24,785 nucleotides of DNA, from assembly GCA_019057795.1 (NCBI GenBank), contig JAHLWS010000045.1, positions 1-24,785 of the forward strand, in the 5' to 3' direction. A program made the translations under genes and the position numbers. Shown here one piece after another: positions 8,375-16,134 of the stretch. The notes beneath the pieces were generated by a model. The model was not told the DNA's origin. It did no database searches and saw nothing but the letters and a program-made list of their open reading frames with translations. How positions within the stretch are numbered: the stretch's first letter is position 1; each line of letters opens with the position of its first letter. The stretch is from Promethearchaeota archaeon (GTDB taxonomy: Archaea > Asgardarchaeota > Lokiarchaeia > Sigyniarchaeales > SOKP01).

Positions 8375-8741
8375 CTATTCAAGTTTCTCCCAGAATTCTT
8401 CATTTGGATGCTCAGGTTGTGGAATTTGTTTCAGATTATGGTAGCAAAAATCGCACATAGTTCCCCCTTGGAGAATCGTCTGAGATCGGGTCAAATGAAA
8501 ATCTTTATTCGCTTTTTTGGGAGAGAAAAAGTCACCAAAGCAAATAATATAGTACAGCATGTCAGGATCTTCAACATTCCGCAAAGCCTCACCATAGATA
8601 CAGCTTGTGACCTTAAAAATATATTGATCATCTTGAGACATGCCTGAAATAAAACTATGCGTCTTGACACCCGCCGAGTCGATCCTTTCCCGATAATCTT
8701 TCAATGATGAATAAGTCTGTTGTTTGGGATTTGGACGAGAA
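8375..8741 (-). pseudogene. N-terminally truncated L-2-amino-thiazoline-4-carboxylic acid hydrolase-like (ATC hydrolase family) gene
   Basis: C-terminal pattern 'VTSCIYGE...IC.GD...LTRSQTILQGGTMCDFCY'. The ORF-track ATG (8773) lies inside an unrelated thiolase scrap in another frame. Confidence 0.6.
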
Positions 8742-8840
8742 TGGATCGGTGATTCCCGCTTCTTTATAAGCATACTTCGCTGCTTTTATGGTCGATGGGA
8801 ATGCTGTGAAGTCTGCTCCAGGTCCACCGTGAGGCACATA
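8742..8840 (-). pseudogene. 99-bp internal fragment of a thiolase paralog
   Basis: YVPHGGPGADFTAFPSTIKAAKYAYKEAGITDP is 27/33 identical to YIPSNGPGADFTAFPATVKAAEYAYKEAGITDP encoded at 13776-13874. Confidence 0.9.
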
Positions 8841-8957
8841 TAGTAAAGAGGAGTTAGAATTAAACCTCGAAATTACCTTATAAAAAAAGAAAAACTTAAA
8901 TAATGATCCGACAAAATTGAAAAATAAAAACTAACTTTATTATATAAAATTTATTGT

Positions 8958-9172: not shown

Positions 9173-10951
9173 CTTAATTGATAAATTACACTCACCCGAC
9201 AAAAATACGCTCGGGCGAAACCTAAAAGAGTAACATTTATCTTCGTATTTTCCTTATTATTATTAATGCCTGCAAAACCTAACGACATTCGTACGGCCAC
9301 GAGGTATACCTATTGGGATTCTCCCGAAGAATTCACTTGTCCCCTCTGTAATTCGAAACTACGACACGAGTTTAATAACGGAGGCCGAAGAATTGAGACA
9401 ATGAAAGGACCGCTCTGGGTAGTCACCAATTATTATAGCTGTACTAATCAAGATTGTGAAATGCATAAAGCATTTCCAGCCGTGTATCCTTCTACTATAA
9501 AACGTAAGCGATTTGCCTTGGATGTATGGGCTAAGGTGATCCAGCACTATTTCAAGCATCATCTGAACTACTCGCTAATCGTGGAGCTCATGTGGGACGA
9601 TTGGGAGGTCTCCATTTCGAGGGGCACAGTAAAGCATATCTGTGAATATTTTGAGATGTCCGGTAAGCAATACATGGACGAGAAGGTCCTTAATGACGTT
9701 AAATCAAGTGGGAAAATCGTCTTATCGTTGGATGGAGCTCAACCCGTTAAAAAGGAGCCTTCTCTATGGGTTTTTTCTGATCGCCTTACAGGACACGTGT
9801 TAATAGCAAGAAACCTGGAATCCGCACCAGCATCCAAACTTGAAGGCTTATTACAGGAAATTGAAGAACTCTACGAGGTACCAGTAGTTGCTGTAATTTC
9901 TGATAAACAAAGGAATATTGTTAATGCCGTCAAATCTTTCAATAGGAAAATCCCTCATGTTTTCTGTCAATATCACTTTCTTGACCACATCGCCGAGCTA
10001 ATTGCATCAAAAGATTCTCATCTCAAGACAACAATTAAAAAAGCTGTCAGACAATTATCTATCGTTGCCAAAAGCAACCTTGCTGATTCAAATGATTTAT
10101 ACAAGCTTTTCTTACCAATCAGTGAGGAGTTAAAGTGTGCAATATCGGCACGAGGAGATCGCTTCAAGATATTTCCCGGGATTGAATGTCACGCCAATCT
10201 AAAATATGTGGTTGATAAATTAGAGCCTTTCAGATCGTATCCATTAAGTCCAAAGCTCTCTCACTCGCTTGGTTCTTTAATCAATGCCCTTACTACCCTT
10301 CTCTCTGAAACCCAACAGTTGCGAGACGAGATCACCTCTTTGATTCCTGATCTCGAGAATATTAGAAGGATCTTTGGAAAACGAGCAAATCGCTCTCAAT
10401 TCATCCAGAAGCAAATAGATAAATGGGTATATAAGCTTCAGAGTCGCCTAAAGAGACGGAGTCTAGAGTATAATCCCCACAATATTAAGTGGCAACAGTC
10501 TTCCCACAAGCTTTCTTGCGAGAAAGTCTGGCAACAGTGGATACGGTTAGTTAATTCATATAGAGAGGGTCTATTCGTAGCGTACGATGACGACCAGCTA
10601 GAGTTCACCAATAATGCCAAAGAACAATTATTTCATCGCAGCAAGCATCATTTTCGGTCATTAATGGGAAGAGAAAACATATCAAGAATCTTTCTCGAGC
10701 ACGGTGGACTTTACTCTCAGCTAATAGATATAGATTATTCCAAGAAAAATGTCACTAGCATCCTTTTAGCAAGCGAGACACCGCTCACTGAATTCAGTAG
10801 GAGAAACTTTACGGCTCAATACGCTATGGTAAAGCGTACATGGAGAATCCGGGAGATTGATACGGGAAACTTCGCTCAATTTGAAGAAAATCTAAGGGAG
10901 TTAGGGAGCACCTAAATGATTTTGTCGAGTGAGTGGGGATTATCAATTAAG
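9173..10951 (+). mobile_element. Complete insertion sequence, 1779 bp
   Basis: TIRs CTTAATTGATAAATTACACTCACCCGACAAAA (9173-9204) and reverse complement CTTAATTGATAATCCCCACTCACTCGACAAAA (10920-10951), 27/32 identical. Flanked by A8 on both sides (9165-9172; 10952-10959). Single transposase, GC higher than the flanks. Confidence 0.9.
9266..10915 (+). CDS. DDE transposase (IS256/ISL3/Mutator-like superfamily)
   Basis: N-terminal Zn ribbon (CPLC...CTNQDC), VLSLDG, VISDK, CQYH (CxxH), and TNNAKE motifs. Confidence 0.88.
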   Translation: MPAKPNDIRTATRYTYWDSPEEFTCPLCNSKLRHEFNNGGRRIETMKGPLWVVTNYYSCTNQDCEMHKAFPAVYPSTIKRKRFALDVWAKVIQHYFKHHLNYSLIVELMWDDWEVSISRGTVKHICEYFEMSGKQYMDEKVLNDVKSSGKIVLSLDGAQPVKKEPSLWVFSDRLTGHVLIARNLESAPASKLEGLLQEIEELYEVPVVAVISDKQRNIVNAVKSFNRKIPHVFCQYHFLDHIAELIASKDSHLKTTIKKAVRQLSIVAKSNLADSNDLYKLFLPISEELKCAISARGDRFKIFPGIECHANLKYVVDKLEPFRSYPLSPKLSHSLGSLINALTTLLSETQQLRDEITSLIPDLENIRRIFGKRANRSQFIQKQIDKWVYKLQSRLKRRSLEYNPHNIKWQQSSHKLSCEKVWQQWIRLVNSYREGLFVAYDDDQLEFTNNAKEQLFHRSKHHFRSLMGRENISRIFLEHGGLYSQLIDIDYSKKNVTSILLASETPLTEFSRRNFTAQYAMVKRTWRIREIDTGNFAQFEENLRELGST

Positions 10952-13433: not shown

Positions 13434-14684
13434 TTAATCTCTTTGTCCTAAAACTGTGACGGAACAGACGCTAAATGCCCCACCGAGATTTTGGCATAAA
13501 CCAACCTTAGCATCGGGAACCTGTCTCCCCTCAGCTCGTCCTTGAAGTTGTTTGGTAATCTCTTGAAGCATGCGACAACCAGTTGATCCAATTGGATGAC
13601 CAAAAGATTTCAGTCCACCAGAAGGATTAACCGCAGTCTCCCCATCCCAATTAAATGTTCCATTCTTTAATTCCTCAGCAGCCATTCCACGATCGCAGAA
13701 TTGTAAGTCTTGACAATTTATAAGCTCAGTTATCGTGAAACAGTCGTGTACTTCGGCGGCATCGATTTCCTTTCTTGGATCTGTAATACCCGCCTCTTTA
13801 TATGCGTATTCGGCTGCTTTAACGGTCGCAGGAAAAGCTGTAAAATCCGCTCCAGGGCCGTTAGAAGGAATATACCATGGAAAATTAGTTCTACACGATA
13901 TAGCGTTTGCTTTAACTAATATATAATCGTCCGCGTGAGCATAACTTTCAGCAAGCTCTGGTGTAGTCAATATTAACGCAGCAGCTCCGTCCGACATGGC
14001 GCAGCAGTCAAAGCGACCGAGAGGGTCAGCGATCATTGGGGCTTTCATTACTTGGTCAATCGTGATCTTACTTCGAAAATGCGCTTTTGGGTGGTAAGAA
14101 CCGTTATCGTGGTTTTTAACCGCCACACGCGCTAAATCCTCTTTTGTCCAACCAAATTCGTGAAAACATCTAGTTGCTGCCATCGAAAACATAGCAGGAG
14201 CCGAAGGTAACGGTAAAACGGGGTGTCCAAATATTTTAAAGCCGGGTAAACCGCTTCCGCCCTCGTCCATGAGTCTAGAGCATATTAACAAGGTGTTAAT
14301 ATTGTTTCTCCACTCCACAGGCGAGGACTACATCGTAAGCTCCAGATGCGACGCCAAAACAAGCATTTCGCTGAATCACTATAAGTGATTTCATTTACGA
14401 AAAGCGTCCATCCCCGAAGCGCAATAGTTCTCAGTACGCGTGATAGGAATCCCATCCAATCTTAGGATATCCTCCACTAATGCACCAGACATTCCAGTGA
14501 AGTAGTAGAAGATACCGACCCATGCTGCTTCAACCTCGTCCTTTTTTATTCCCGCATCTTTAAACGCATCCCGAGAAGCTTCAAATAGCAAGTCGTATTG
14601 GTTTTTATCCCATCGTTCGCCATATTTTGTAGCGTCACAGCCAATAATGGCTACTTTATCTCTAATTCCTTTTATTTTACTCAT
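13434..14684 (-). CDS. SCP2-type acetyl-CoA acyltransferase (thiolase), 396 aa, in three exons: 14684-14395, 14365-14306, 14274-13434
   Basis: Joined exons give 1191 nt with ...ENYCASGMDAFRNACFGVASGAYDVVLACGVEKLMDEGGSG..., catalytic Cys, AEVHDCFT, GHPIGSTG and GLCQNLGG. Strong GAGGTGA RBS; no other lesions. Confidence 0.88.
14275..14305 (-). other. Candidate bulge-helix-bulge-type mRNA intron 2 (31 nt)
   Basis: mRNA GGAG-AA|A-C(A)AUAUUAACA-CCU-UGUUAAUAUG-CUCU-AG|A-CUC. The 4-bp helix GGAG/CUCU is flanked by AAA and AGA; excision gives GAG AAA CUC AUG (E K L M). Confidence 0.75.
14366..14394 (-). other. Candidate bulge-helix-bulge-type mRNA intron 1 (29 nt)
   Basis: mRNA UCGU-AA|A-UGA(A)AUCACU-UAU-AGUGAUUCA-GCGA-AA|U-GCU. 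The 4-bp helix UCGU/GCGA is flanked by AAA and AAU; excision gives UUU CGU AAU GCU (F R N A). Confidence 0.75.
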
Positions 14685-14691
14685 TTTTTTT

Positions 14692-14698
14692 TCACCTC
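14692..14698 (-). promoter_or_regulatory. Shine-Dalgarno site GAGGTGA of the thiolase, overlapping the upstream stop codon
   Basis: TAGAGGTGA followed by an A-run and the ATG at 14684; typical archaeal anti-SD complement, implying co-transcription. Confidence 0.8.
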
Positions 14699-16134
14699 TA
14701 ATGTCTTAAGGGCCGACATTTCCAATAGTAGTTATGGAAATCAGCTCCTTCGTGTTCTTTTCTGAAAGTAAGTTCAACTTCCATCCCAATTTTTACGTTC
14801 TCTTCGGGTTTTTGGATTTCCGTCATGTTTAATAACACGCGTCCGCCACCCTCTAAATCAATTACACATCGAGGGACTGGTGTAGCTAAGTAAGCCCCTC
14901 CAACTAGATGATCTAAAGTATACGTAAAAATGGTTCCTTTGTGTGCAAGTTTAATTAGTTCAAGCTGGTCGTCTGCTCTACAAACAGCGCACGAACGCGC
15001 TGTTGTAGGATATTGAACGGTTCCACAGCTAGTGCATTTAAGGCCATACCATCTATAAACAGCGTATGTATCTCGCCACATGGTTACAGCAGAGCTTTTT
15101 CGGACATAACGATCTTTTACAAGTAATTCTTTATTTTCAACAAATACGTTGTAATTCTTCAGAGCGATCATTGATTTTTGGTGTCCTGCTACGCCCAAGT
15201 GCTTCTTTGAGAGTTCTCTTACAGCTTTTCTGTCTGTGATGTGCATTAAAATAGCATCTGCTCCATCTCCATATCCTGCCAAAATTACTTTTGCATCTTC
15301 CTTAGGTCGTTTTAAAGCAGCCATTAGTAGCATGAATGCCATCGGGGTTCCAAAATCGCCTAACTGGAAAAATAAACCGTTTTGAGCGGCTCCTTGTGGA
15401 AACTTCATCATTTTTGAGATTCTCCCGTGAACTCTAGGGTTGTTATAATAATAAGCTGCAATGTCAACTTCTTCTGGTTTTAGATCGTTCCTTTTCATAA
15501 TTTCAGTCATTACTTTCGTAATATTTTTCATGTAGAATTGATTGTCCATTTTGACTTCGAAAGTTCTTATAAATTTATCTTTGTTTGTCCGCTTCCAAGG
15601 TCCTGTTACGTTTGCCGAGATCGAATAATAATCGTCAATAATGAGCGGTAAATCGTCCCCTTCTGCTATTAATAAAGCTGCCGCGCCATCAGCGTAACCG
15701 TATTCCCACATGGTGGAAGGTTCAGGCTCTCTAGTATCAGCAGCGACAATAAGAATGCTTTTTATGTCTTTATTCGCTTTGATTGTATCAATCGCTCTAG
15801 CTAGGGCAGTAGTTCCCGATTTTAATGAATCAGTAAAATCTGCTGTTATTATACCTTCCCTTAAGTCCAATACTGTAGCAATTAAAGAAGCCGAATCTTT
15901 TTCCGTGTAGACTTGAGTAGTTGACGCGAAAAAAAGTCCATCAACGCTTTTTAGGTCGACACCTGCTAAACAATCTAACCCCGCTTCAACCGACATGGTA
16001 ATACTATCTTCGTCCGCGCTTGCAACTGCTTTTGAGCCGGGAATAGAAGGAAAATCCCATGCTTTAGCAATAAGATCGCGAGGAAGCAACCAGCGCGGTA
16101 AATACGCGCCATAACTTTTAATACCAATTGGCAT
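14698..16134 (-). CDS. HMG-CoA synthase/KAS III-like domain fused to a DUF35 (Zn-ribbon + OB-fold) domain
   Basis: GIKSYGAYLPRW, DEDSITMSVEA, G.ADGAAA, AGYGDGADA; C-terminal CTSCGTVQYP...CAVC, GTIFTYT, IGMEVELTFRK, YYWK. Confidence 0.85.
   Translation of the reverse strand: MPIGIKSYGAYLPRWLLPRDLIAKAWDFPSIPGSKAVASADEDSITMSVEAGLDCLAGVDLKSVDGLFFASTTQVYTEKDSASLIATVLDLREGIITADFTDSLKSGTTALARAIDTIKANKDIKSILIVAADTREPEPSTMWEYGYADGAAALLIAEGDDLPLIIDDYYSISANVTGPWKRTNKDKFIRTFEVKMDNQFYMKNITKVMTEIMKRNDLKPEEVDIAAYYYNNPRVHGRISKMMKFPQGAAQNGLFFQLGDFGTPMAFMLLMAALKRPKEDAKVILAGYGDGADAILMHITDRKAVRELSKKHLGVAGHQKSMIALKNYNVFVENKELLVKDRYVRKSSAVTMWRDTYAVYRWYGLKCTSCGTVQYPTTARSCAVCRADDQLELIKLAHKGTIFTYTLDHLVGGAYLATPVPRCVIDLEGGGRVLLNMTEIQKPEENVKIGMEVELTFRKEHEGADFHNYYWKCRPLRH

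What the first reader, a model, noticed from the sequence alone, without database searches (positions are those of the whole stretch)
14366..14394. Intron 1: 29-nt BHB-like insert just after the catalytic cysteine, containing in-frame stops
The insert lies about 8 codons after ENYC. Unspliced, the frame reads CGU AAA UGA AAU CAC UUA UAG, so translation ends at 97 aa and UGA read-through would not rescue it. The central helix UCGU/GCGA includes one G-U pair. The intron-side bulge (AAA) is canonical, while the exon-side helix is weak (BHL/HBh'-like relaxed form). That would require a broad-specificity endonuclease. The resemblance of CGUAAAUG at the 5' junction to CGAAAUG at the 3' junction may hint at how the insert arose.
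Basis: partly seen in the sequence, partly recalled or inferred. Interest (0 to 1): 0.8.

Follow-up and report, generated by a model that had tools for sequence, protein, structure and literature searches.

The report
tRNA-type mini-intron in Asgard thiolase gene
A 29-base insert that breaks a thiolase gene of a Loki-type Asgard archaeon has the shape cut by the archaeal tRNA-splicing enzyme and has evolved under that constraint, so the mRNA is almost certainly cut and rejoined; the papers I could search report this inside only one other archaeal coding sequence (cbf5).

Summary
Bases 14366-14394 (minus strand) are a 29-nt insert in a thiolase gene. It is absent from 101 intronless orthologues, shifts the frame and carries in-frame UGA and UAG.

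Cutting after the second base of each bulge gives the invariant F-R-N-A. The 4-bp helix UCGU/GCGA, the AAA bulge and an intron hairpin form an HBh'-type bulge-helix-bulge motif. The exon-side helix is essentially missing.

The same insert sits at the same site in two diverged relatives, with a compensatory U-A to C-G change in the central helix.

The host gene is still under purifying selection: 17 synonymous against 3 non-synonymous lineage-specific codon changes.

An independent DNA sample holds the insert.

The genome encodes a catalytic and a non-catalytic EndA subunit, with the L1/CSL loop tied to broad specificity, plus RtcB.

Across the genus this gene has six intron positions of 29-31 nt, and five fit the strict cut rule.

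Ribosome hopping, pseudogene, mobile repeat and artefact are rejected.

There is no RNA evidence for this intron: no transcript contig covered it.

The scan has reported the same kind of intron in other genes of this genome.

The parts
14395..14684 (-). Exon 1 of the thiolase gene (codons 1-96 plus the first two bases of Asn97). It contains the ENYCASG active-site cysteine.
   Evidence: ORF list; colinear with intronless orthologues. An orthologue matches NF004810 acetyl-CoA acetyltransferase and PDB 6ESQ.
14397..14400 (-). Exon half of the central 4-bp helix H (UCGU: last base of Phe95 plus Arg96 CGU).
   Evidence: Pairs with GCGA at 14368-14371. U-A becomes C-G in the G036 copy. The Arg codon changed from AGG to CGU only in this lineage.
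14394..14396 (-). 5' bulge AAA. The predicted cut lies between 14395 and 14394.
   Evidence: Unpaired in the MFE and centroid folds. It reads AAA, AAA and AAU in the three copies. The rule of cutting after the second bulge base is stated for cbf5 in PMC2738675.
14366..14394 (-). Intron 1 (site A), 29 nt, with in-frame UGA and UAG.
   Evidence: Absent from 101 orthologues. Present at the same site in G036 (L025) and in metagenome contig L081.
14372..14393 (-). Intron-side helix h' and hairpin (UGAA.UCACU / AGUGA UUCA, loop UAU).
   Evidence: It is 95.8% paired across three copies, with one compensatory and two one-sided changes.
14368..14371 (-). Intron half of helix H (GCGA).
14365..14367 (-). 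3' bulge positions AAU. The predicted cut lies between 14366 and 14365. In the predicted fold this is part of a 10-nt open loop, not a closed bulge.
   Evidence: Only one U-G pair is available for the exon helix h.
14306..14365 (-). Exon 2, 60 nt (last base of Asn97 to the first two bases of Lys117).
14275..14305 (-). Intron 2 (site B), 31 nt. Helix H is GGAG/CUCU, the bulges are AAA and AGA, and there is a 9-bp hairpin.
   Evidence: It is shared with G016, G052 and contig L081.
13434..14274 (-). Exon 3, to the stop codon. The three exons sum to 1191 nt, the same as the intronless orthologues.
14698..16134 (-). Upstream gene of the same operon: an HMG-CoA-synthase-like protein fused to a DUF35/ChsH2 zinc-ribbon and OB fold.

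Best explanation
Bases 14366-14394 are a bulge-helix-bulge (BHB) intron of the relaxed HBh' class, lying inside the coding sequence of a thiolase gene of a Loki-type Asgard archaeon.

Proposed mechanism (inferred, not shown): in the pre-mRNA the last four exon bases before the cut (UCGU) pair with GCGA near the 3' end of the intron. The AAA bulge and an intron hairpin flank this helix. The two-subunit splicing endonuclease EndA cuts after the second base of each bulge position, and RtcB joins the exons to give ...UUU CGU AA|U GCU... (F-R-N-A). A second intron of 31 nt lies 60 nt downstream and must also be removed to restore the frame.

Shown: the insert, its motif, its conservation with covariation, selection on the exons, and the presence of the enzymes.

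Inferred: the cleavage and ligation themselves.
For: 1. The insert is exactly 29 nt, breaks the frame and is missing from 101 orthologues.
2. Only one register gives 4/4 central pairs plus a 4-bp h' helix, and that register yields the invariant FRNA. Only 60 of 20,000 shuffles do as well.
3. The same site carries a 29-nt insert about 69% identical in G036 and in contig L081. Helix H is 100% paired with a U-A to C-G double change, the hairpin is 95.8% paired, and slid controls reach 21-47%.
4. The G036 gene carries only this insert, so its remaining roughly 900 nt would be out of frame unless the insert is removed, yet they are intact.
5. Exons are under purifying selection: dN/dS is 0.04-0.06 against the nearest intronless genes. 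Lineage-specific codon changes are 17 synonymous to 3 non-synonymous, as in intronless sisters.
6. Two of those synonymous changes (Arg96 AGG to CGU, Glu116 GAA to GAG) create the exon halves of the two central helices.
7. Five further intron positions in the same gene across the genus are 29-31 nt long. Four of them meet the strict cut rule and site C pairs only 3 of 4. None of 368 wrong offsets reaches 4 central pairs plus at least 2 h' pairs.
8. The genome has a catalytic EndA (Tyr/His/Lys; best match A. pernix alpha 3P1Z_B, with no gap across the L1/CSL loop), a His-less second EndA, and one RtcB.
9. The insert is present in an independent DNA sample.
Against: - There is no RNA evidence. 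Three metatranscriptome runs gave no contig over 14344-14525. The only joint seen, at intron 2, belongs to a relative about 94% identical that may lack the intron in its DNA.
- The 3' cut site is not in a closed 3-nt bulge; the exon helix h has one wobble pair.
- Covariation rests on three sequences only. On the covariation score and the share of cells paired, 31 of 500 shuffles of the pair partners did as well.
- The substrate range of this EndA is inferred from homology, not measured.
Confidence: 0.85

Rival explanations
1. The gene is a pseudogene. A small insertion broke it, it is never repaired at the RNA level, and one of the many thiolase paralogues does the work.
For: The genome holds about 13 thiolase-like matches. 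No RNA proof of removal was obtained.
Against: - There is no other lesion in 1191 nt.
- dN/dS is 0.04-0.06, and lineage-specific changes are 17 synonymous to 3 non-synonymous, as in intact sisters.
- The same insert is kept in two diverged lineages with a compensatory change.
- No second copy of this orthologue exists in the genome; the next best match is 41% identical.
Confidence: 0.05
2. Translational bypassing: the ribosome takes off at Arg CGU and lands on CGA 29 nt further on, as in phage T4 gene 60. The hairpin and the nearby UGA would promote the hop.
For: In this window a hop from CGU to CGA would give exactly FRNA, and a hairpin and a stop follow the take-off site.
Against: - In contig L081 the same hop would give FRIA, whereas Asn is invariant in 101 orthologues. 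The BHB cuts give FRNA there.
- In G036 the landing codon would be CGG.
- Intron 2 and the other sites have no matched codon pair.
- A hop does not explain the covariation in helix H.
Confidence: 0.03
3. The insert is removed from the RNA, but by enzymes other than EndA and RtcB.
For: The 3' site is not a canonical bulge. Enzyme specificity was not measured.
Against: The cut rule of EndA predicts the right product at five of six sites, with exon/intron covariation in the 4-bp helix. The host has the EndA type that cuts such motifs in Crenarchaeota (PMC5829648, PMC2738675). No other candidate system is known.
Confidence: 0.05
4. The insert is an assembly or sequencing artefact, or a copy of a repeated mobile element (MITE).
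For: The insert contains a 7-bp inverted repeat.
Against: A contig from another sample is identical over 926 nt. Independent assemblies carry the orthologous insert. No other copy of the sequence exists in the 4.95-Mb genome.
Confidence: 0.01

Closest known systems
BHB intron in the cbf5 pre-mRNA of Crenarchaeota (Watanabe 2002; Yoshinari 2006; Yokobori 2009, PMC2738675)
   Same: A short intron lies inside a coding sequence. The BHB is unconventional or relaxed, with cuts between the second and third bulge bases. The host has a hetero-oligomeric EndA. Presence varies among relatives.
   Different: The phylum is different (Asgard, not Crenarchaeota) and the gene is a metabolic one. Here there are two introns in one gene and six positions across one genus, and the introns are only 29-31 nt. 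Splicing is shown experimentally for cbf5, not here.
Non-canonical tRNA introns of Asgard and TACK archaea (Marck and Grosjean 2003; bioRxiv 10.64898/2026.10.13.758758)
   Same: The HBh'-type motif, the size range, the presumed enzymes and the repeated, patchy gains are the same. Three anticodon-loop tRNA introns called by ARAGORN in this genome fit the same cut rule with H = 4 and both flanking helices.
   Different: [quoted passage not shown]
BHB intron in the 5' UTR of Haloferax volcanii HVO_1309 mRNA (PMC7714728)
   Same: EndA cuts an mRNA.
   Different: That intron lies in the untranslated leader and does not interrupt the reading frame.
HAC1/XBP1 unconventional mRNA splicing in eukaryotes
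   Same: A small intron that changes the frame is removed from an mRNA without the spliceosome, and the exons are joined by a tRNA ligase (RtcB in animals).
   Different: The nuclease is Ire1 and the sites are two stem-loops, not a BHB. That splicing is a regulated stress switch, and no regulation is shown here.

Membership tests
Archaeal BHB intron (strict hBHBh') | Two 3-nt bulges on opposite strands, 4 bp apart, each closed by an outer helix | tested here: not met
   The 5' bulge, the 4-bp helix H and the intron helix h' are present. The exon helix h has a single U-G pair, and the 3' site lies in a 10-nt loop.
Archaeal BHB intron, relaxed HBh' class | All four central pairs, plus a 3-nt bulge, plus one flanking helix of at least 2 pairs | tested here: met
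   UCGU/GCGA gives 4/4 pairs, the bulge is AAA, and h' has 4 pairs followed by 5 more. Only 60 of 20,000 shuffles do as well.
Archaeal BHB intron, relaxed HBh' class | Cuts after the second base of each bulge give a functional product | tested here: met
   The cuts give CGU AAU = R-N. FRNA is invariant in 101 orthologues. The same holds in G036 and L081.
Archaeal BHB intron, relaxed HBh' class | The structure is kept in evolution (covariation) | tested here: met
   Helix H is 100% paired with one compensatory change. The hairpin is 95.8% paired with one compensatory and two one-sided changes. Only three sequences were available.
Archaeal BHB intron, relaxed HBh' class | The intron is absent from the mature RNA | tested here: inconclusive
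   No RNA contig covers 14344-14525 in three metatranscriptome runs.
Archaeal BHB intron, relaxed HBh' class | The host has EndA of a broad-specificity type and an RtcB ligase | tested here: met
   The alpha-like subunit has Tyr/His/Lys and aligns without a gap through the A. pernix L1/CSL loop. The beta-like subunit lacks the His. There is one RtcB. Specificity is inferred from PMC5829648.
Programmed translational bypass (T4 gene 60 type) | Matched take-off and landing codons that give the conserved protein | tested here: not met
   L081 would give Ile for the invariant Asn. G036 would land on CGG. Intron 2 has no matched pair.
MITE or other repeated insertion element | Several copies in the genome | tested here: not met
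   blastn-short found only the locus itself, plus 14-18-nt chance matches.

The most novel reading that the evidence does not exclude
Lokiarchaeial protein-coding genes host a living population of tRNA-type mini-introns that are gained, lost and passed between lineages into the same sites. One thiolase gene has six intron positions within a genus. Intron 2 differs at only 2 of 31 bases between genes that are 71% identical. The exon codons have adapted to pair with the intron. If so, routine enzyme-based mRNA splicing and intron turnover existed in the archaeal relatives of eukaryotes.
Probability: 0.4. Interest if true: 0.9.

Novelty: new member of a known kind. Interest (0 to 1): 0.78.

Why it matters
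In the papers I could search, enzyme-spliced introns that interrupt an archaeal reading frame are reported for a single gene (cbf5). PMC7714728 says so explicitly. I found no report for Asgard archaea.

Here a metabolic gene of an Asgard archaeon needs two such splices to be read at all. The same gene shows six intron positions across one genus. That makes several questions directly testable in the closest prokaryotic relatives of eukaryotes:
- how often archaeal mRNAs are spliced;
- how introns arrive at new sites;
- how codons co-evolve with the splicing motif.

It also matters for annotation. Such genes are called as fragments or pseudogenes.

Tried and rejected
1. RNA evidence. One search for runs and one laying of reads were allowed. 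The three metatranscriptome runs held only 5-10% of the sampled words and gave no contig over intron 1. The single joint at 14270>14305, with TAA between, comes from a relative about 94% identical that uses a TTA Leu codon. It cannot separate splicing from a natively intronless gene.

2. Genome-wide census. I scanned for the HBh' motif plus merging of two open frames of at least 80 codons. The true geometry gave 273 loci against 270-313 for three decoy geometries, so adjacent genes swamp the signal and the census says nothing.

3. tRNA intron comparison. ARAGORN finds only 18 tRNAs and handles one anticodon-loop intron each. Three (Thr, Ala, Ser-GGA) fit the cut rule cleanly with H = 4 and both flanking helices, and the rest are unreliable.

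4. Copies of the intron elsewhere in the genome: none found.

5. Rfam and tRNA scans of the window: nothing found.

6. The outer exon-exon helix GACGC/GCGUC of the MFE fold is only 80% kept in the three copies. I do not count it as part of the motif.

7. uL11 check. The gene is in three open pieces with hairpin inserts. My strict rule gave a 26-nt solution for the second insert that is out of frame, so I did not resolve its junctions.

Full report
**What is there**

The window is the whole contig C45 of a 4.95-Mb, 31% G+C genome in 87 contigs. I take the genome to be a Loki-type Asgard archaeon. ARAGORN finds few simple tRNAs and many with introns. The orthologues come from marine-sediment and cold-seep metagenomes. 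Earlier notes of this scan say the same.

On the minus strand, an HMG-CoA-synthase-like gene fused to a DUF35 zinc-ribbon/OB domain (16134-14698) is followed by a thiolase gene (14684-13434). The thiolase gene is in three pieces. An intact orthologue (L022, 98% identical) matches NCBIfam NF004810 acetyl-CoA acetyltransferase above its cut-off. Its best solved relative is the thiolase of the archaeal thiolase/HMGCS complex, 6ESQ.

**The observation**

Exon 1 ends ...ENYCASGMDAFR.

Alignment with 11 and then 25 orthologues of the same genus shows an insert of exactly 29 nt here. A second insert of 31 nt lies 60 nt downstream. After removal of both, the gene is 1191 nt, like the others, and colinear with them. 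All 101 orthologues without this insert read F-R-N-A at the site.

The stated coordinates (14366-14394) are one of three equivalent registers that give CGU AAU. Three more registers give CGA AAU.

A DNA contig from another sample of the same study is identical over 13560-14485. The insert is therefore in the DNA and is not an assembly error.

**The motif**

The rule for archaeal BHB introns is a cut after the second base of each 3-nt bulge, with the bulges separated by 4 bp. This rule is stated for cbf5 in PMC2738675. Under it, exactly one register works:

- The central helix is UCGU (exon) with GCGA (intron): 4 of 4 pairs, one of them G-U.
- The 5' bulge is AAA.
- A 4-bp intron helix leads into a 5-bp hairpin.
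- The 3' positions are AAU.

The exon-side helix has a single U-G pair, and in the predicted fold the 3' site lies in a 10-nt loop.

Only 60 of 20,000 shuffles of the insert do as well in any register that gives the right product.

**Comparative evidence**

A DNA search of 42 genomes of the genus found one genome, G036, with a 29-nt insert at the same site. A scan of metagenome contigs found a third copy, L081. The three copies are about 69% identical.

- The central helix is paired in all three. Its outer pair changes from U-A to C-G: a synonymous UUU to UUC in the exon, matched by A to G in the intron.
- The hairpin is 95.8% paired, with one compensatory and two one-sided changes.
- Sliding the partners by 1-3 columns drops pairing from 92% to 21-47%.

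With three sequences this is suggestive rather than statistically strong.

The G036 gene has only this one insert. Its remaining roughly 900 nt would be out of frame if the insert stayed, yet they are intact.

**Selection on the host gene**

Against its nearest intronless relatives the gene has dN/dS of 0.04-0.06. Codon changes unique to this lineage are 17 synonymous and 3 non-synonymous, which is like the intact sisters (22:6, 20:1, 34:3).

Two of the unique synonymous changes are Arg96 AGG to CGU and Glu116 GAA to GAG. These are exactly the exon halves of the central helices of introns 1 and 2.

All four carriers of intron 2 have GGAG at the exon half, against 10 of 100 non-carriers. These sequences are not independent of one another.

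**A class of introns in this gene**

Across 26 genome and 80 metagenome orthologues there are six insert positions:

| Site | Length (nt) | Carriers |
|---|---|---|
| E | 30 | five contigs; 13 nt upstream of site A |
| A | 29 | 3 |
| B | 31 | 4 |
| C | 30 | 6 |
| D | 30 | 3 |
| F | 30 | 2 |

At five sites the strict rule picks one register with 4 of 4 central pairs and an intron helix, and that register gives the conserved peptide. Site C has 3 of 4 pairs. None of 368 other offsets reaches 4 central pairs plus at least 2 intron-helix pairs.

Only site E has a good exon helix. The weak exon side of intron 1 is therefore typical of this class.

On the gene tree the carriers of one site are scattered.

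**Enzymes**

The genome has two EndA genes of about 200 aa.

- One keeps Tyr, His and Lys. It is closest to the catalytic alpha subunit of the A. pernix heterotetramer (3P1Z_B, E = 4e-34). The alignment has no gap across the L1/CSL loop and keeps its Lys.
- The other lacks the His.

There is one RtcB.

Kaneta et al. (PMC5829648) report (alpha-beta)2 EndA with the L1 loop for Asgard archaea, and tie that loop to cleavage of relaxed motifs.

**Rivals**

A ribosome hop from CGU to CGA would give the right protein in this window. In L081 it would put Ile in place of the invariant Asn, and in G036 the landing codon would be CGG. The other introns have no matched codons.

A pseudogene is contradicted by the selection data and by the conserved, covarying insert.

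A repeated element is excluded, because there is no other copy in the genome.

**What is missing**

There is no RNA evidence for this intron. My motif-based census of the genome failed against its controls.

Earlier notes of this scan report similar introns in other genes of this genome, among them uL11. I confirmed only that the single uL11 gene is in three open pieces separated by short hairpin inserts.

**Known or new**

cbf5 of Crenarchaeota is the published case of a BHB intron inside an archaeal coding sequence, and Haloferax has one in a 5' UTR (PMC2738675, PMC7714728). Seven full-text searches found no report for Asgard protein genes. A 2026 preprint treats Asgard tRNA introns only.

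I file this as a new member of a known kind. The wider reading, an active population of mRNA mini-introns, remains open.

Noticed in passing
window 14275-14305 (minus strand); L012, L035, L081: Intron 2 differs at only 2 of 31 bases (both in the hairpin loop) between this genome and G016/G052, whose thiolase genes are about 71% identical with saturated synonymous sites. The copy in contig L081 is much more diverged. This suggests recent passage of the intron between lineages into the same site.
   Followed up: partly
L045, L097, L101, L102, L103 (reference position 277); L089, L094 (reference position about 1039): There are two more intron positions in the same thiolase gene in metagenome contigs. 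Site E (30 nt, full hBHBh' with a 5-bp exon helix) lies 13 nt upstream of site A. Site F (30 nt) lies near the C-terminal GHP motif.
   Followed up: partly
window 14366-14396 and 14365-14371: The bases AAAUG follow the helix on both sides of the intron (spacing 28 nt). In contig L081 both sides read AAUUG instead, so the first intron base and the last intron base changed together (A/A to U/U). This may be chance or a preference of the enzyme.
   Followed up: no
window 8673-8843 (minus strand): A 59-residue fragment is 56% identical to residues 148-206 of exon 3 of this thiolase. It lies about 400 nt from a 549-aa ORF (9266-10915, plus strand) that begins with a cysteine-rich stretch and that I did not search. 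It is possibly a thiolase relic.
   Followed up: no
G000 C73:108504-108980 (minus strand): The only uL11 gene is in three open pieces (MSKTNK...GGPP / GPAVGPTGIN / IKDVVDAVNEKT...) separated by short inserts with hairpins and stops. My strict rule finds a 26-nt solution for the second insert that is out of frame, so its bulges may be irregular.
   Followed up: partly
G000 C11:43315-44088 (plus strand); G005 C71:40083-40853: A thiolase paralogue has one in-frame TAA inside the match in both genomes.
   Followed up: no
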